This document shows, piece after piece, positions 1-52,523 of a stretch of DNA of 64,000 nucleotides. Source of the stretch: Octopus vulgaris (Eukaryota); contig OX597814.1 of assembly GCA_951406725.2 (NCBI GenBank), positions 204,972,001-205,036,000 of the forward strand, given 5' to 3'. The translations under genes were made by a program, and so were the position numbers. Position 1 is the first letter of the stretch, and each line of letters begins with the position of its first letter. Under the pieces are notes generated by a model. It saw only the letters and a list, made by a program, of their open reading frames with translations, was not told the origin of the DNA and did no database searches.

Positions 1-191
1 TAATATATACACTGTTATATATTTTGTTTTATATTGTTCTGTTTACCTTCCTTTTTGTACAAATGTGTATTATATTATATAAGTGTAGCATTATGATATA
101 TAAGTTTTTATATTTTACATTTTTATATTTTTATATTTATATGTATATGATTATATAATATTTTTCACTATTATAACAAATTTAATTTAAT

Positions 192-301
192 TCTCTGAAG
201 AGGCCGTGGGGCATCCTTGTTAATGCCTCATTTATACCTGCCTTTATGGCTTATAGGTTAAATGAGGTATGACTGTCCTCACTGCCGAAACAGCTGTCAG
301 T
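192..301 (+). ncRNA. type I hammerhead ribozyme motif with long stem II
   Basis: CTGAAGA (195-201), ggc...gcc closing an extended hairpin, GAAA (287-290), palindromic cagctg, GTC cleavage triplet (296-298); stem I only about 2 bp adjacent to the core. Confidence 0.7.
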
Positions 302-506
302 TTTGATTTATTTGCATATTATATTTGAAATTTTTTACTTATATCTCTTTATCTTTTTACTTTTACTATTACTGTATATCTCATTTCATTTTATATATTG
401 CCTTTACTCATATGTAATGGTGTATTAAAGTATGGATTGAGTATCATCGGATAGTTGATGTTTTACTGATTTAAGTATGTTTCTCCATTCTCTAATTTTG
501 TAGTAT

Positions 507-537
507 TTGTATATATATATATATATTTGTGTGTATA

Positions 538-1214: not shown

Positions 1215-1515
1215 TACAAAATGAGAAAATGGAGAAATATATCTAAATCAATCATCAACTGTCAGATAATACCGAATCATATACTTCATTAAAACACTAC
1301 ACAATAGCAATGAGGTTAGACATTAATACAGATATAAATTTTTATATCTTGTTATGTTTATTTAGTTATATCTCACCATATTGTTTGTAATTATTGTACT
1401 GTATTAATGTCTAATCTCATTGCTATTGTGTAGTGTTTTAATGAAGTATATGAATCGGTATTATCTGATAGTTGATGATTGATTTAGATATATTTCTCCA
1501 TTTTCTCATTTTGTA
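1215..1515. repeat. inverted repeat, 117-bp arms (1215-1331 / 1399-1515)
   Basis: Arms are near-perfect reverse complements; a diverged copy of the right arm lies at about 415-505. Confidence 0.9.
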
Positions 1516-2494
1516 TTATTAATTTATGGTAAAAATAATTTTACCTTTGCCCACCTAATACAGTAAATGAATTAATTGCATCGCAATTTTTAACATTTAT
1601 GTATTAGCTTTGTTGGGTACTTCTCTAGCAGTATATTGGATATATGTTATCCCATGAGGGTTGAATTTACAACCCCTATCTCATTTTATATATATATATA
1701 TATATAAATATATATATATGTATAATGTATATTTATATTGGCTTCCATGCCGGTGGCAAGTAAAAATGCTGGTGATACATGAAAAATCATTCAAGCGAGG
1801 TCATTGCTATGGCCGCTGGACTGGCTCCTGTGAAGGTGGCATTTAAAAAAACACCATTTGAGCGTGGCCATTGCCAGTATCGCCTTACTGGCCCTCATGC
1901 CAGTCGTATGTAAAACCACCTACTACAACAGGGGTCGCCACCACCCCCTCCCGGATCTTCATGGAGCTTTAGGTATTTTCGCTCAATAAACACACACAAC
2001 GCCCGGTCTGGGAATTGAAACCGCGATCCTCAGACTGCGAGTCTGCTGCCCTAACCATTGGGCCTCCTCTCACAGCTGCTGCTGGTGCCACATGAAAAGC
2101 ATCCTGTACACTCTGGATAGTGGTCAGCAACAAGAAGGGCATCCAGCCATAGAAACAATTCCAAAGAAGACAGTAGAGCTTGGTGCAGGCTTCTGACTTG
2201 ACAGTTCCTATCAAAATGTTCGACCAATGCCAGCATGGAAAGAGGACTTTAAATGATGATGATTATGACATCTGCAATGAAAAAGAAAAGAAAAACCATT
2301 TAGGTAGATTCAAAATAAAATAATGCTAGAACATAAACAATAATGGCAGTGTGGTAAGAAGTTTGTTTCCCAACCACCTGGTTCGAGGTTCAGTTCCACT
2401 GCAAGGCACTTTGGGTGAGTGTCTTCTATAATAGCTTTTGGCTGACCAAAGCTTTGTGAGTGGATTTGGTAGACAGAAACTAAAAGAAGTTCAT

Positions 2495-3790: not shown

Positions 3791-4450
3791 ACATAAATGT
3801 GTGTGAGAGAGATTTGTGTCTGTTTGTTACCCACCATCTGAAATATTGAGATAAGTTATCTACTTCATGGTTAGATAAAAATCACAGTTTATACTAACTG
3901 CTGTCCACCCCCCACCCCCCCGTGTTTGTTCAGTCAACACACCACTCCTCAGCTTTACCCCTCCCCACCTCCCACAGTACCTGCTTCTACTATTGCTTCC
4001 TGCACCTAAGTTAAAATTATTAAATGTTTGCAGAAGATATGTTTAACAATGAGACTTCAAAGTTAACAGTTACTATTAATATCAAATATTATGTTTCAAC
4101 TCTAGGAATAGAGTTTAAATCCTCTTGTTTGGTGCCTGTTTAGTATATCAGCTGTACAAGCCTTCAAAACACACACACACACCTACCTACTCATGTAGTG
4201 GGAGGATATACTTGAGTGTGAATGTAAAGATAGAAGAATAAAATATTTCTCTGATTGTTTTGTACAAAAGGTGGTGGTCACATGATATTCAATGCCATAG
4301 TGTATATATATATATATACATATATTTACAGTGTATATGCATATACACATATATATACATATATATACATATACACTGTAAATATATGTATATATACATA
4401 TACACTGTAAATCATCATCATCATCGTTAAACGACGATGATGATGATGAT

Positions 4451-7400
4451 TTACAGTGTATATGTATATATACATATATTTACAGTGTATATGTATATAC
4501 ACATATATTTACAGTGTATATGTATATACACATATATTTACAGTGTATATGTATATATATACATATATTTACAGTGTATATGTATATACACATATATTTA
4601 CAGTGTATATGTATATATACATATATTTACAGTGTATATGTATATACACATATATTTACAGTGTATATGTATATATACATATATTTACAGTGTATATGCA
4701 TATATACATATATTTACAGTGTATATGTATATACACATATATTTACAGTGTATATGTATATATACATATATTTACAGTGTATATGTATATACACATATAT
4801 TTACAGTGTATATGTATATACACATATATTTACAGTGTATATGCATATATACATATATTTACAGTGTATATGTATATATACATATATTTACAGTGTATAT
4901 GTATATACACATATATTTACAGTGTATATGTATATATACATATATTTACAGTGTATATGTATATATACATATATTTACAGTGTATATGTATATATACATA
5001 TATTTACAGTGTATATGTATATACACATATATTTACAGTGTATATGTATATACACATATATTTACAGTGTATATGTATATATACATATATTTACAGTGTA
5101 TATGTATATACACATATATTTACAGTGTATATGTATATACACATATATTTACAGTGTATATGTATATATACATATATTTACAGTGTATATGTATATATAC
5201 ATATATTTACAGTGTATATGTATATATACATATATTTACAGTGTATATGTATATATACATATATTTACAGTGTATATGTATATATACATATATTTACAGT
5301 GTATATGTATATATACATATATTTACAGTGTATATGTATATATACATATATTTACAGTGTATATATACATATATTTACAGTGTATATGTATATACACATA
5401 TATTTACAGTGTATATGTATATACACATATATTTACAGTGTATATGTATATATACATATATTTACAGTGTATATGTATATACACATATATTTACAGTGTA
5501 TATGTATACATACATATATTTACAGTGTATATGTATATATACATATATTTACAGTGTATATGTATATACACATATATTTACAGTGTATATGTATATACAC
5601 ATATATTTACAGTGTATATGTATATACACATATATTTACAGTGTATATGTATATACACATATTTACAGTGTATATGTATATATACATATATTTACAGTGT
5701 ATATGTATATATACATATATTTACAGTGTATATGTATATACACATATATTTACAGTGTATATGTATATACACATATATTTACAGTGTATATGTATACATA
5801 CATATATTTACAGTGTATATGTATATATACATATATTTACAGTGTATATGTATATACACATATATTTACAGTGTATATGTATATACACATATATTTACAG
5901 TGTATATGTATATATACATATATTTACAGTGTATATGTATATACACATATATTTACAGTGTATATGTATACATACATATATTTACAGTGTATATGTATAT
6001 ATACATATATTTACAGTGTATATGTATATACACATATATTTACAGTGTATATGTATATACACATATATTTACAGTGTATATGCATATACACATATATTTA
6101 CAGTGTATATGTATATACACATATATTTACAGTGTATATGTATATATATACATATATTTACAGTGTATATGTATATATATACATATATTTACAGTGTATA
6201 TGTATATATACATATATTTACAGTGTATATGTATATACACATATATTTACAGTGTATATGTATATATATACATATATTTACAGTGTATATGCATATATAC
6301 ATATATTTACAGTGTATATGTATATACACATATATTTACAGTGTATATGCATATACACATATATTTACAGTGTATATGCATATATACATATATTTACAGT
6401 GTATATGCATATATACATATATTTACAGTGTATATGTATATATACATATATTTACAGTGTATATGTATATATACATATATTTACAGTGTATATGTATATA
6501 TACATATATTTACAGTGTATATGTATATATACATATATTTACAGTGTATATGTATATACACATATATTTACAGTGTATATGTATATATACATATATTTAC
6601 AGTGTATATGTATATATACATATATTTACAGTGTATATGTATATACACATATATTTACAGTGTATATGCATATATACATATATTTACAGTGTATATGCAT
6701 ATACACATATATTTACAGTGTATATGTATATACACATATATTTACAGTGTATATGTATATACACATATATTTACAGTGTATATGTATATATACATATATT
6801 TACAGTGTATATGTATATATACATATATTTACAGTGTATATGTATATATACATATATTTACAGTGTATATGTATATACACATATATTTACAGTGTATATG
6901 CATATACACATATATTTACAGTGTATATGTATATACACATATATTTACAGTGTATATGTATATACACATATATTTACAGTGTATATGCATATACACATAT
7001 ATTTACAGTGTATATGCATATATACATATATTTACAGTGTATATGCATATACACATATATTTACAGTGTATATGCATATACACATATATTTACAGTGTAT
7101 ATGCATATACACATATATTTACAGTGTATATGTATATACACATATATTTACAGTGTATATGCATATACACATATATTTACAGTGTATATGCATATATACA
7201 TATATTTACAGTGTATATGTATATATACATATATTTACAGTGTATATGTATATACACATATATTTACAGTGTATATGTATATATACATATATTTACAGTG
7301 TATATGTATATATACATATATTTACAGTGTATATGTATATATACATATATTTACAGTGTATATGTATATATACATATATTTACAGTGTATATGTATATAT

Positions 7401-7552
7401 ACATATATTTACAGTGTATATGTATATACACATATATTTACAGTGTATATGTATATATACATATATTTACAGTGTATATGTATATATACATATATTTACA
7501 GTGTATATGTATATATACATATATTTACAGTGTATATGTATATATACATATT
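4451..7552. repeat. 29-bp tandem satellite (TTTACAGTGTATATGTATATAYACATATA), about 105 copies
   Basis: 29-nt periodicity of ACAGTG; the 1000-aa ORFs here are artefacts. Confidence 0.97.
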
Positions 7553-8442
7553 TTCACAGTCACACACACACATATATCTATCTGCCTGTGGAGTTAATAG
7601 AGGGGTACCTCCGGGTAGATTGACGTGTACCCGGGTGAATAATTGATCGAATATATGATGTAATTTTATAAATCATCATCATCATTATTTAGCATCTATA
7701 TTCTATGCTGGCATGGGTTGGACAGTTTGAATGGGCTGGTACACTGGAAGGCTGCACCAGGCTCCAGTCTGATTTGACATGGCTTCCTATGGCTGGATGC
7801 CCTTCCTAACGCCAACCACTCTGAGAGTGTAATAGGTGCTTTTATGTGCCATTTGCATGACCCCAGTATCTGCCACAACTGCAATTTTGCTCAGCTTCAT
7901 GGGTCTTCTTCCCAAGCATGACGTAATGCCAAAGGTCTTGGTCATTGCCTCCATGAGGCCCAACACTCGAAAGGAACTCAGCCACCTTGCCTTCATGGGA
8001 CCCAACACTTAAATGGAAGATCATTTGTCATATTTAAGCAAAATGTTTTTCTCTTTATATCATCATCATCATCATCATTTAATGTCCATTTTCCATGCTG
8101 ACATGGGTTGGATGATTTGACAGGAGCTGGCAAACTGGAAAACAACACCAGACTCCAATTGTCTGGTTTGGCATGGTTTCTACTGCTGGATGCCCTTCCT
8201 AATGTCAACCACTTTACAGAGTGTACTGCGTGCTTTTTATGTGGGACTGGCTCCAATAATTTATACATGGCACCAGCAAGAGTGCTCTTTACATAGAACA
8301 AAAGAAAATTATTCGGTGTGTAAAATGCTTTTCTCTTCAGTTTTTGTGTTAATTCATTAAGTATTGTCTCATTACTAGAACCGCTCTTTTAATTAACTTT
8401 TTTAATATAGTCTAATTATTGAAGCATGTCTCTTAATTGTAG

Positions 8443-47586: not shown

Positions 47587-50132
47587 ATCATCATCATCAT
47601 CGTTTAACGTCCGTTCTCCATGTTAGCATGGGTTGGACGGTTCGACTGGGGATCTGGGAAGCCAGAAGGCTGCACTAGGCAGGCTCCGGTCTTATCTGGC
47701 AACGTTTCTACAGCTGGATGCCCTTCCTAACGCCAACCACTCCGTGAGTGTAGTGGGTGCTTTTTACGTGCCACCTGCACTGGTGCCAGGCGAGGCTGGC
47801 ATCGGCCACGGTCGGATTGGTGCATTTTATGGAAGCCAGTCGAGGCGGCACTGGCTTCGGCTACGATTTGGATGGTGCTTTTTCGTGCCATCGACACGGA
47901 AGCCAGTCGAGGCGGCGCTGGCATCGGCCATAATTCGGATAGTGCTTTCTACGAACCTCCAGTCCCAGGGCCCTGGCATCTGCCGGGTGCTAGTCATAGG
48001 ATTGGTTCAATTTCGATTTCACTTGCCCCAACAGGTCTTCGCAAGCAAGGGGGGTTGCCATAGGTGCCTGTCGTCGGATGAGGTTTGATATCGACTTCGC
48101 TTGCCTCAACAGGTCTTTGTGTGTCCAATGGGGGAAAGGCATGCATAAGTGGGCTGGACTCACTTGTCCTGCCTGGTCTTCTCACGCACAGCATATTTCC
48201 AAAGGTCTCGGTCGCCGGTCATTTCCTCAGTGAGACCCAAGGTTCGAAGGTCGTGCTTCACCACCTCATCCCAGGTTTTCCTGGGTCTACCTCTTCCACG
48301 GGTTCCCTCAACTGCTAGGGATTGGCACTTTTTCACACACCTATCTTCATCCATTCTCGCCACATGACCATACCAGCTCAATCGTCTCTCTTGCACACCA
48401 CAACTGATGCTTCTTAGGTCCAACATTTCTCTCAGGGTACTAACGCTCTGTCGAGTATGCACGCTGACATTACACATCCATCGGAGCATACTGGCTTCAT
48501 TCCTCACGAGCTTACGCATGTCCTCAGCAGTCACGGCCCATGTTTCACTGCCATGTAGCATGGCTGTTCGTACACATGCATCATACAGTCTGCCTTTTAC
48601 TCTGAGTGAGAGGCCTTTAGTCACCAGCAGAGGTAAGAGCTCCCTAAACTTTGCCCAGGCTATTCTTACTCTAACAGTTACACTTACAATGCACCCACCC
48701 CCACTACTGACTTGGTCACCTAGATAATGGAAGCTATCAACTACTTCTAGTTTTTCCCCCTGGAAAGTGACGGAAGTTTTTTTCTGCAGATTTTCAGAGA
48801 TTATTGCTCCTGAGCATCTGCCACATACAAAAACTATCTTTCCAGTTAGCCTTCCTTTGACATTGCTGCACCTCTTATGTGTCCATAGCTTACACTGGGT
48901 GCATCTTATAGAGTTTCTACCTACACCTTTTCTACAGATCGAGCAGGGCCATCTTCCTGAAGACATTTGTGGATTGTCTACCTTCCTACTTATTAGTACT
49001 TTGGTTTTAGCTAGGTTGACTCTAAGGCCCCTCGATTCTAAACCCTCCTTCCACACCTGGAACTTCTCCTCCAGTTCTGACAGTGACTCAGCAATTAGAG
49101 CAAGGTTGTCAGCATATAGGAGCTCCCAGGGGCAACCTGTCTTGAATTCCTCCGTAATTGCCTGGAGGACTATGATAAATAGGAGGGGGCTGAGTACTGA
49201 ACCCTGGTGGACCCCAACCTCTACTTTGAATTCTTCTGTGTACATGTTGCCAACCCTTACCTTACTTACGGCATCCCTGTACATGGCTTGCACAGCCCTC
49301 ACCAGCCATTCATCTATCCCTAGTTTCCTCATTGACCACCAGATAAGGGATCGGGGGACCCTGTCGAAGGCTTTCTCCATGTCAACGAAAGCCAGGTACA
49401 GGGGCTTATCTTTGGCTAGGTATTTCTCCTGCAGCTGTCTCACCAGAAATATGGCATCAGTGGTGCTTTTCCCTGGCATGAAACCAAACTGCATCTCGTC
49501 CAAATTGACTCTCTCCCTAATCAGTTGGGCTATGACCCTCTCTGTAACCTTCATTACCTGATCCAACAGCTTGATACCTCTGTAATTATTTGTATCTAGG
49601 GCGTCTCCCTTACCTTTGTAGCAGTTGACTAGTATGCTGCTACACCAGTCATTGGGTATGACTCCTTCGTGTATCACCTGGTTAACTATACGGGTGACTA
49701 GGTTATAGCCGACACTGCCAGATATTTTGAGCATCTCTGCAGTAATTCCTGATGGGCCTGGGGCTTTCCCTGTCTTCATGCTTCTAATTGCTTTAACTAC
49801 CAAAGAATTGTCAACTCGGATGGCTGGTCCCTCTGTTGGGTTGACATTCGGCAGACTCTCTTTATCCCATTCATTTTCTTTATTCAGCAACCTTTCATAG
49901 TGGCATCTCCAAACCTCTCTCTTTGCATCCTCATTTAGCGCAAATGAACCATCATCCATGCGGACACATTTCTCTCCTACCACATCACGATTCTCTCTCA
50001 CACACTGTCTTGCAACACGAAATACCTCAAGTCTTTCATCCTCATGGCACAGAACATTGGCAAATTTTTTCTTATCCGCTTCCCCTCTGGCTAAATAAAC
50101 CTGTCTCCTAGCTTCCCTTCTGGCTGTCTGAT
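47587..50132 (-). mobile_element. 5'-truncated RTE-clade LINE (RT with embedded PHD finger, 3' UTR, (GAT)n tail)
   Basis: Open frame with KGKGD, YRGIKLL, QFGF, FVDMEKAFDRV, GVHQGSVLSP, YADN, RGRGRPRKTW; 3' UTR leads into ...acgttaaacgatgatgatg. Confidence 0.93.
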
Positions 50133-50544
50133 GTACATACCTACATCTATATGTATGTATACATGCATATATGGGTACAGGACACCAAAAAAACGTAGAA
50201 CACAACAAGAAACGAAAACATAAATGGAGTAATTACTATGAAATATTGTGTAGAATATATTGTATAAAGGGTCGTGGGTAAGGCCAAAACAATGGAAAGT
50301 AAATGCAAGGTAAATCACAAGAAAACAAATATGTAAATTAATGTAGACTTACTTTGTATTCAATATTGCGTGTGTGTGAGCTCACACACACACATATATC
50401 AGCAACATTCATTTAGTTTCTTGAAAACAAGGTCATAACCCCAAAATATTGAATACAAGGTAAGTCTACATTAATTCCCGTGTTTGTTTTCTTGTGATTT
50501 ATCTTGCATTTACTACACATTGTGTTGGCCTTACACTGATCCTT

Positions 50545-50598
<54 letters not shown>

Positions 50599-50776
50599 CA
50601 AAAAGAAAATGGAGAAACAATTTAGTTGGTTTATCAGCTTTACGATATTAGAATGTTGACTTATTTATTTATTTAACAAAATGAGAACCATAATAACATA
50701 CATTGAAATTCAATACATGTAAGATAAGAATACAATTATAAAAACCTTAATATAAATTATTGGAATCATTAAAATC

Positions 50777-50900
50777 AGTCTTACAGCTGTTTCAGCCTTT
50801 GGAAAAAGTAATTTGTTGTGCTCATACAAGTCAATTTATTGAGGTTGTAGGCAGTTAAAAATGAGGTACTTATATATTTCCATAGGCCTCGTCAGAGATT
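50777..50900 (-). ncRNA. type I hammerhead ribozyme motif with long stem II
   Basis: Minus strand reads tct-CTGACGA-ggcctatggaaa...tttccaaaggct-GAAA-cagctg-TA-aga; all core nucleotides intact. Confidence 0.75.
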
Positions 50901-51362
50901 ATAAAGTACATGAAAGATATAAATATATACATGAAACAAGATTCACGTACAAATCAATAAATATAAATATATACAAATAAATACACACTTACATATGCAT
51001 CATCATCATCGTTTAATGTCCGTTCTCCATGCTAGCATGGGGTGGACGGTTCGACCGGGGTCTGGGAAGCCAGAAGGCTGCACCAGGCTCCGGTCTTATC
51101 TGGCAATGTTTCTACAGCTGGATGCCCTTCCTAATGCCAACCACTCCGTGAGTGTAGTGGGTGCTTTTTACGTGCCACCTGCACTGGTGCCAGGCGAGGC
51201 TGGCATCGGCGACGGTCGGATTGGTGCATTTTATGGAAGCCAGTCGAGGCGGCACTGACTTTGGCTTAGGCTCATATATATATATATACATACATAAGCA
51301 AATATATACACCTAAACATAAATAGACATAATTAAACATGCGCACAAATATATAGACAATTA

Positions 51363-51408
<46 letters not shown>

Positions 51409-51591
51409 TACTGGAGCGCAACATATACGTCCATGTCTATGAGTACATATATAATATTTAATTATTACTAACATTATTATTATTATTAATAATAACAATA
51501 ATATATATACACACACACACACATATATACATACACACACACATAACATACACACACACACACACACACATATATACATACACACACACAC

Positions 51592-51712: not shown

Positions 51713-51993
51713 TTTACTTGTTTCAGTCATTTGACTGTGGCCATGCTGGAGCACCGCCTTTAGTCGAGGAAATCGACCCCAGAACTTATTCTTTGTAAGC
51801 CTAGTACTTATTCTATCGGTCTCTTTTGCCGAACCGCTAAGTTACGGAGACGTAAACACACCAGCATCGGTTGTCAAGCGATGTTGGAGGGGGGGGGGGA
51901 CAAGCACAACACACATACATATATATATATATATATGTATATGCATATATACGATGGGCGTCTTTCAGTTTCCATCTACCAAATCCACTCACA

Positions 51994-52032
<39 letters not shown>

Positions 52033-52104: not shown

Positions 52105-52523
52105 TAGATATACATACATACACACACATATATACATATACATGCATGTATCAATCTATATTATAACCACTAGTAAAGTAAATATTTTATGTAATTTTTA
52201 TGTATATTTTCTTAGTAACTAAAATGAGTACTAAATAGATACAATGTATTTATCACCCGATATTTCTATGTAAATCATAAATTTACTTACATATTATTAA
52301 ATGTAAAAAATAAATTCTTACAATTAGCTGCACATGTATAATTTAAACGAAAAGAAGTAATTCATGATTATTAATCTACAATAATTAATAAAGCCTACAA
52401 AATTATTTTTTATTATGAGGATTAATTGATTAGTTAACTCAAGAAACAACTATATAATCCAAACTTATGTTATAGAGATTTTATATATATACACACATCA
52501 CATAGTATAAACATATATATGCT

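What the first reader, a model, noticed from the sequence alone, without database searches (positions are those of the whole stretch)
50595..50960. Second hammerhead-bearing element with the same architecture but diverged sequence
Seen on the - strand: tct-CUGACGA, an 11-of-12-bp stem II base (ggcctatggaaa/tttccaaaggct), GAAA, CAGCUG, UA, then aga. About 180 nt further on is the same terminal motif tttctccattttct..tttgta next to (TA)n, as at about 480-507 and 1493-1515. The stem II sequence differs from the copy at 192-301 while pairing is kept. Inference: this is structural conservation across subfamilies of a microsatellite-targeting, ribozyme-carrying retroelement, possibly undescribed in cephalopods. 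It is the best candidate for a novel system here.
Basis: partly seen in the sequence, partly recalled or inferred. Interest (0 to 1): 0.75.

Follow-up and report, generated by a model that had tools for sequence, protein, structure and literature searches.

The report
Hydra-clade Penelope end, long-armed hammerhead
This is the broken-off tail end of a known kind of animal jumping gene (a Hydra-clade Penelope-like retrotransposon) that carries a hammerhead RNA motif predicted to cut itself; the class is already described in octopus, and what is unusual is one arm of the motif, about four times longer than in published relatives.

Summary
Observation confirmed: a type I hammerhead motif at 50898-50779 (-), then the shared end motif and (TA)16. 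It is one of about 1,700 related copies; the copy at 192-301 belongs to a younger sister subfamily (about 1,300 copies, 99% alike). Both are 3' ends (pseudo-LTRs) of Penelope-like retroelements encoding RT plus GIY-YIG endonuclease. The proteins carry the Hydra-clade marks (RWK, DKT, CxCX5C), not Neptune's. Craig et al. 2021 already list a hammerhead-bearing, (TA)n-targeting Hydra element from an octopus, so 'undescribed in cephalopods' and 'novel system' fail. Departures from print: helix II domain 85-112 nt (Hydra: about 10-24), conserved helix I of 2 bp, 5.6-kb unit, 174-nt structured tail (30-40 in print). In 8 of 8 two-armed insertions only one arm carries the tail. No copy (0 of 30) starts at the predicted cut; cleavage is untested. 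A sister lineage lacks the linker cysteine motif yet still ends in (TA)n, against the proposed targeting role of that motif. The scan noted long-armed Hydra-type hammerheads before on other DNA.

The parts
50594..50996 (-). Contiguous 3' end (pseudo-LTR) of an older subfamily ('B') of a Hydra-clade Penelope-like element
   Evidence: 39 other near-full-length copies at 84-93% identity; B-like ends flank RT/EN ORFs elsewhere
50779..50898 (-). Type I hammerhead motif; predicted cut between 50782 and 50781
   Evidence: core conserved across 28 copies of about ten subfamilies
50794..50888 (-). Extended helix II domain, 95 nt, four stacked helices
50783..50790 (-). 8-nt palindrome forming helix III; predicted dimerisation site
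50594..50617 (-). End motif and 3' end site 1 (likely first reverse-transcription start site)
   Evidence: interpretation from PMC11167929
50564..50595 (.). (TA)16 target microsatellite
50998..51272 (.). Unrelated SINE-like repeat inserted into the element's 3' UTR
   Evidence: matches in many unrelated loci; the label SINE-like is my inference
51273..51500 (-). Upstream 3' UTR segment of the same element
   Evidence: shared with upstream flanks of other B copies
51714..51994 (.). Second unrelated repeat inserted in the 3' UTR
52140..52500 (-). Most upstream recognisable 3' UTR segment; no ORF left in the window
   Evidence: 83% to L144; tblastn of the window with RT and EN pieces empty
1..507 (+). 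3' end of the young sister subfamily ('A'); hammerhead core 195-201, GAAA 287-290, predicted cut 298/299; inverted arm with tail lies just upstream of the window
1216..1690 (.). Short two-armed insertion of a third subfamily, truncated below the hammerhead: - arm ends at site 1 (1216), + arm carries the tail (about 1515-1690), (TA)n on both sides

Best explanation
The finding is the 3' end (pseudo-LTR) of a 5'-truncated, decayed copy of a Hydra-clade Penelope-like retrotransposon, lying next to a TA microsatellite and carrying a type I hammerhead motif that likely cuts only as a dimer or with protein help. Shown: full-length relatives are 5.6-kb units of 5' UTR, one RT + GIY-YIG ORF region and a 2.4-kb AT-rich 3' UTR with the hammerhead about 200 nt before the end; copies sit as tandems, 5'-truncated singles and head-to-head pairs; 3' ends fall at two sites 174 nt apart, both abutting (TA)n. 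Inferred, by analogy with the anole element PAc: a tandem copy is transcribed through the pseudo-LTR, the RT-endonuclease (probably a dimer) nicks both strands of (TA)n and primes reverse transcription internally at the two sites that bracket a hairpin-rich 174-nt tail, which gives two-armed insertions with a tail on one arm only. Inferred for the ribozyme: as a monomer it folds inactive (core CUG can pair with CAG of the helix III palindrome; helix I is 2 bp), two copies pair through the 8-nt palindrome to form helix III, and cleavage trims multimeric or read-through transcripts but is not the step that defines inserted ends.
For: Young subfamily A runs upstream into RT and EN reading frames in tandem and inverted copies (unit 5,600 nt). 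B-like ends with tail directly precede an ORF in L149, L151, L154, L156 and follow RT(-EN) in L153 and L144 (6 of 21 RT-bearing loci examined, plus intermediate subfamilies L161, L163 with ends on both sides). RTs of A- and B-linked ORFs form one group (13 of 43 rows, SH-aLRT 100, quick tree; 63-84% identity to A). RWK/RWR, DKT, CxCX5C, CxxC-x2-E and CxH motifs present, matching the Hydra definition (PMC8557442 section 11). Pfam GIY-YIG in 6 of 10 EN pieces (best E 3e-4); predicted EN fold ranks I-TevI, EndoII and UvrC in its top 8 (best E 0.054); predicted RT fold matches RTs including telomerase (E 5e-5 to 1e-4). Ends: A 33 at site 1 (33 followed by TA), 12 at site 2 (11), 3 read-through, of 48; B 30 at site 1 (23 followed by TA), 5 at site 2 (4), of 41 aligned out of 44. 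In 30 unselected A copies, 8 head-to-head pairs each had exactly one arm at site 2. Core departs from majority at 6 of 319 cells (1.9%) against 9.9% in domain II and 5.4% downstream in 29 B copies. Named structure: 79.5% of cells paired vs 75.4 shuffled (0/500) and 30-39% in slid controls; closing pair of helix II is G-U 17, A-U 6, G-C 4 of 28. Active monomer fold 6.9 (B) and 5.4 (A) kcal/mol above the minimum; palindrome-linked dimer 5.7 and 6.9 kcal/mol below two monomers.
Against: No ORF was found attached to a copy over 90% identical to this exact subfamily; the ORF-linked ends match it at 68-88% (tail 85-94%), so this subfamily could be a deletion derivative. No fetched A copy had RT and EN in one unbroken frame; breaks fall at homopolymer runs that differ between copies. 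Helix I is only 2 conserved pairs, below the 3-7 of the published minimal descriptor, so the motif may be catalytically poor. 0 of 30 A copies start at the predicted cut, and words before and after the cut are about equally frequent (616 vs 664). Number of pairs with two-sided change is not above shuffles (17 vs 14.0, 43/500), the structure was drawn from these sequences, and RNAalifold recovered only the base of domain II on the plain alignment. Clade placement rests on motifs; no tree with reference Hydra, Nematis and Neptune proteins was possible. EN structural match is below the E 0.001 line.
Confidence: 0.9

Rival explanations
1. Subfamily B is a non-autonomous, retrozyme-like or deletion-derived element that only shares its end with a Hydra-clade partner and is copied in trans.
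For: No ORF on a copy over 90% identical to B; most top copies are short and the window copy has no ORF remnant; retrozymes derived from PLE ends are in print (bioRxiv 10.64898/2026.07.22.740005, passages) and were noted in this genome by the scan (e1-8667016).
Against: B copies have ragged 5' ends that extend more than 2 kb into a 3' UTR homologous to that of A; no 150-500-nt tandem monomers among the 30 loci; B-like ends flank ORFs in 6 loci and the RTs grade continuously into A.
Confidence: 0.07
2. The hammerhead words are real but the motif in this lineage is catalytically dead or nearly so and is kept as a protein-binding or dimerisation structure.
For: 2-bp helix I, inactive predicted monomer; no copy ends at the cut; PAc ribozyme needed protein, was dispensable for insertion in vitro and left no cut ends in RNA-seq (PMC11167929).
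Against: All catalytic positions, C/A at the cleavage position and the 10.1-11.1 pair are kept across about ten subfamilies while flanks diverge; a 2-bp helix I has a precedent in D. virilis Penelope, whose extended construct cleaved weakly (PMC4209133).
Confidence: 0.25
3. The partner is a Neptune- or Nematis-type element.
For: C-terminal GIY-YIG, cysteine linker and microsatellite bias are shared with these clades.
Against: Linker is CxCX5C rather than CX2-5CxxC; DKT rather than DKG; RWK present; CxxC/CxH flank the conserved E and N.
Confidence: 0.03

Closest known systems
Hydra clade of C-terminal EN+ Penelope-like elements, including Hydra-1_Obim of Octopus bimaculoides (Craig et al. 2021, PMC8557442; passages, section 11 and supplement files S1/S2 part 2 read)
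   Same: RT + C-terminal GIY-YIG, RWK, DKT, CxCX5C linker, CxxC/CxH, (TA)n targets, type I hammerhead near the 3' end, tandem and inverted copies, tail on one end.
   Different: Unit 5.6 kb (published generally under 3 kb; Hydra-1_Obim 2,507 bp); domain II 85-112 nt (about 10-24 nt in the Hydra rows of File S2, counted by eye; about 50 nt in two non-Hydra PLE-X rows); conserved helix I 2 bp (3-7+ in File S2); even 8-nt palindromic helix III; tail 174 nt (30-40 in the text); thousands of copies.
Minimal PLE hammerheads (Cervera and de la Pena 2014, PMC4209133; parts 1-2 of 4 and supplement passages read, one supplement file not searchable)
   Same: Type I, palindromic helix III, predicted to work as dimers, mostly found as single motifs in truncated PLEs, many families per genome.
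   Different: Published helix II 7-8 bp with a small loop; here a four-helix arm of about 95 nt.
PAc Poseidon element of the green anole (Frangieh et al. 2024, PMC11167929; parts 1-2 of 4 read)
   Same: Two discrete 3' ends that define a tail; AT-rich targets; hammerhead cut not reflected in inserted ends.
   Different: Different clade; there the start sites lie inside the ORF start and are 30-40 nt apart, here in the 5' UTR about 140-310 nt before the ATG and 174 nt apart.
Metazoan non-LTR retrozymes (Cervera and de la Pena 2020, PMC7229834; passages read)
   Same: Type I hammerhead with palindromic helix III in an AT-rich repeat.
   Different: Retrozymes are 170-400-nt non-coding tandem monomers; this sequence is the end of a multi-kilobase coding element.

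Membership tests
EN+ Penelope-like elements | RT followed by C-terminal GIY-YIG endonuclease | tested here: met
   (in relatives; the window copy has lost the ORF)
EN+ Penelope-like elements | Pseudo-LTRs from tandem/partial tandem copies, inverted 5'-truncated arms, tail on one end | tested here: met
Hydra clade | RWK motif and DKT in place of DKG | tested here: met
   RWR/RWK and DKT in A, L151, L156, L161
Hydra clade | CxCX5C linker motif | tested here: met
   8 of 8 EN pieces returned by the motif search, from subfamily A and B-related loci; absent in 16 of 16 pieces of the sister lineage
Hydra clade | CxxC and CxH on either side of conserved E and N | tested here: met
   alignment A2; CxH degraded in some old copies
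Hydra clade | CCHH motif absent | tested here: inconclusive
   not evident in A2 but not aligned to a CCHH-bearing reference
Hydra clade | Insertion into (TA)n | tested here: met
Hydra clade | Hammerhead near the 3' end | tested here: met
   dimensions non-canonical
Hydra clade | RT phylogeny groups with Hydra references | not testable with these tools
   no reference proteins on hand; tree holds only own-genome rows
Neptune / Nematis | CX2-5CxxC linker and DKG | tested here: not met
   vs definitions
Non-LTR retrozyme | Short non-coding tandem monomers of 170-400 nt | tested here: not met
Hammerhead ribozyme (type I) | Conserved core with helices I-III | tested here: met
   helix I 2-3 bp, helix III plausible only as a dimer
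Hammerhead ribozyme (type I) | Site-specific self-cleavage | not testable with these tools
   no bench data; no raw RNA reads on hand

The most novel reading that the evidence does not exclude
These octopus-type Hydra elements have evolved a distinct gated hammerhead (95-nt arm, 2-bp helix I, core locked against the helix III palindrome until two RNAs pair) together with a 174-nt hairpin tail bounded by two RT start sites, each used by one subunit of a dimeric RT-endonuclease; and because a sister lineage without the linker cysteine motif hits the same (TA)n targets, microsatellite targeting in PLEs is set by the endonuclease core or the RNA, not by the proposed zinc finger.
Probability: 0.3. 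Interest if true: 0.6.

Novelty: new variant of a known kind. Interest (0 to 1): 0.35.

Why it matters
The class is known, so this is no new system. It matters modestly for two open questions on Penelope-like elements: what their hammerheads do, and how tails, inverted arms and microsatellite targeting arise. A very young family (99% identical, about 1,300 copies) with sharply separated end sites, a one-tail-per-insertion pattern and a natural pair of lineages with and without the linker cysteine motif is good material for those tests. The long arm also means that standard hammerhead descriptors with short loop 2 would likely miss thousands of motifs in such genomes.

Tried and rejected
Rfam scan of the window: no hammerhead family among the 150 listed of 287 matches (137 weaker ones not shown; the list is microsatellite noise). 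Pfam on four ORF pieces at E 0.1: nothing relevant; PDB sequence search with the RT profile: only chance hits. First apparent ORF links were rejected: in L019/L075 the B copy is inserted behind an element of the sister lineage, and the ORF pieces in L003, L007 and L023 are only 33-42% identical to A and were not counted. DNA-transposon reading of the inverted arms rejected because arms differ in length, are 5'-truncated and only one has the tail. RNA runs: no RNA holder listed; four contig sets laid on 130-505 gave no usable ends, and five A>G differences in shallow contigs cannot be told from other copies. First tail alignment held two spurious rows (L061:5552-5750, L014:736-950) and was redone on 14 of 16 rows. 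Careful tree did not finish; the quick tree is cited. Three rows were left out of the EN alignment. L093 and L119 were left out of the structure set, and 28 of 65 distinct motifs were aligned. Lunse et al. 2017 on dimer cleavage was not held; seen only as cited in PMC6765202 (passages). Literature searches found no paper on long-armed hammerheads in cephalopod PLEs; a 2026 octopus repeat annotation (PMC13282606, passages) reports 31 recently active Penelope-like families and does not use the words ribozyme or Hydra in its main text; its supplement, Repbase/Dfam and subscription papers were not seen.

Full report
Observation. The motif is as described. On the - strand the core CUGACGA starts at 50895, the base of helix II pairs 11 of 12, GAAA starts at 50793, the palindrome follows and A17 is at 50782. 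The end motif starts at 50617 and runs into (TA)16. A descriptor search gave 1 hit in the window, mean 0.02 in 100 shuffles and 0 of 100 with a palindromic helix III. The copy alone folds only weakly better than shuffles (z -2.0; the young copy at 185-312 gives -4.8).

Copy number and age. The finding ('B') has 1,996 first-look candidates, with the 39 best other copies 84-93% identical. The copy at 192-301 ('A') has 1,561 candidates and its 40 best are 99-100% identical. Exact 18-nt words across the 3' core occur 1,697 (B and close relatives) and 1,296 (A) times, controls 0. The A and B ends align along their length (score 134 vs shuffled max 99 of 200).

What the repeat is. Upstream of A copies lie an AT-rich 3' UTR of about 2.4 kb and reading frames for an RT and a GIY-YIG endonuclease separated by an asparagine-rich linker; copies occur as 5,600-nt tandems and with inverted 5'-truncated arms. 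B copies also extend upstream into a homologous UTR, and the window copy reaches about 52500 with two foreign repeats inserted and no ORF left. Among 21 RT-bearing loci found by following B's upstream sequence, B-like ends plus tail precede the ORF in four (L149, L151, L154, L156) and follow RT or RT-EN in two (L144, L153), at 68-88% identity to the window copy; L161 and L163 are intermediate subfamilies with ends on both sides. No ORF was found on a copy over 90% identical to B. These RTs form one group of 13 rows (support 100, quick tree) apart from a sister lineage of 30 rows at about 50% identity. Domain identity: Pfam GIY-YIG in 6 of 10 EN pieces, best E 3e-4; predicted EN fold nearest I-TevI, E 0.054; predicted RT fold matches DRT9, telomerase and group II intron RTs, E from 5e-5.

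Clade. Craig et al. 2021 define the Hydra clade by RWK, DKT, a CxCX5C linker, loss of CCHH, CxxC and CxH around E and N, (TA)n insertion and canonical hammerheads. The A and B proteins show these motifs; CCHH loss was only inspected, and no reference tree was possible. Their supplement lists Hydra-1_Obim from Octopus bimaculoides, 2,507 bp, (TA)n target, with a hammerhead. So the combination is described in a cephalopod, and the Neptune guess is not met.

The ribozyme. Sixty-five distinct motifs were pulled from the loci; domain II is 85-112 nt in this lineage and 47-60 nt in the sister lineage, against about 10-24 nt in the Hydra rows of File S2 and about 50 nt in two PLE-X rows (counted by eye). 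On 28 representatives a four-helix arm has 79.5% of cells paired (shuffles 75.4, 0/500; slid controls 30-39%), with clear two-sided changes such as G-U/A-U/G-C at the closing pair (17/6/4), G-C/A-U at column pair 37-136 (12/10) and at 74-107 (13/6); the count of covarying pairs is not above shuffles (17 vs 14.0, 43/500), and the structure was drawn from these sequences. In 29 B copies the 11 core positions depart from the majority at 1.9% against 9.9% in the arm and 5.4% downstream; 20 of 29 keep core and palindrome whole. Helix I has only 2 conserved pairs. RNAalifold pairs the core CUG with CAG of the palindrome; the active monomer is 5-7 kcal/mol above the minimum and the palindrome-linked dimer 6-7 below two monomers. 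This fits the dimer-cleaving PLE hammerheads in print. There is no genomic trace of cutting: 30 of 30 unselected A copies are intact across the site and words on either side are about equally common (616, 664), as was reported for PAc.

Ends and mechanism. 3' ends fall at two sites: of 48 A ends 33 at site 1, 12 at site 2, 3 read through into the next unit, and 44 of the 45 terminal ends abut (TA)n; of 41 aligned B ends 30 at site 1 and 5 at site 2. The sites are 203 and 377 nt after the predicted cut. In all 8 head-to-head pairs among 30 unselected copies one arm ends at site 2 and the other at or just short of site 1; the small element at 1216-1690 and the A element at the window's start follow the same rule. 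The tail folds into four conserved hairpins (43 pairs, 6 with two-sided change, -31.8 kcal/mol on 14 rows). Frangieh et al. showed that a PLE tail is the stretch between two internal RT start sites and predicted a protein dimer that nicks both strands. I infer the same here, with a longer tail in the 5' UTR; the finding's copy is a single arm primed at site 1.

Sister lineage. It lacks any CxC in the 80 residues before GIY-YIG (0 of 16 pieces), yet of 31 ends examined 9 meet (TA)n at a short site, 13 at a site about 150 nt further, and 9 read through into an ORF; all share the core of the same end motif. This sits badly with the suggestion that the linker motif mediates TA targeting, though old insertions could predate the loss and the Hydra membership of that lineage is not proven.

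Verdict. Real feature, known class, modest variant. Earlier scan notes on other DNA reached similar readings; I saw them after stating the Hydra reading and they are not independent evidence. Interest 0.35.

Noticed in passing
L084, L104, L110 and relatives (G000, e.g. C1:75008481-75018381): A second Hydra-like lineage with long open ORFs (777-904 aa) has no CxCX5C linker yet ends in (TA)n at two sites about 150 nt apart and shares the end-motif core; hammerheads have 47-60-nt arms and 4-5-bp helix I.
   Followed up: partly
L079, L084-L087, L089 (3' UTR about 4300-4420 in oriented loci); L131, L167: A young family carries a U4C core variant (CCGAAGA) in all copies seen.
   Followed up: no
L074-L116: Many other unrelated hammerhead families with palindromic helix III (CGAUCG, CGUACG, CAAUUG, CGCGCG) occur in these loci, several in inverted pairs.
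   Followed up: no
window 48163-50232 (-): A 690-codon open frame of an unrelated non-LTR (RTE-like, label from recall) reverse transcriptase just downstream of the finding.
   Followed up: no
window 50260-50550: MITE-like element with inverted repeats of about 120 nt between the (TA)n run and that ORF.
   Followed up: no
window 4449-7560: 29-nt satellite, 107 copies, 96% matches.
   Followed up: no
L061-L069: All young 5.6-kb copies fetched are frame-broken at homopolymer runs that differ between copies; assembly error or slippage.
   Followed up: no
L070 (upstream of the window): A 357-codon frame resembling a Helitron-type PIF1 helicase (label from recall) lies upstream of the window's first element.
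   Followed up: no
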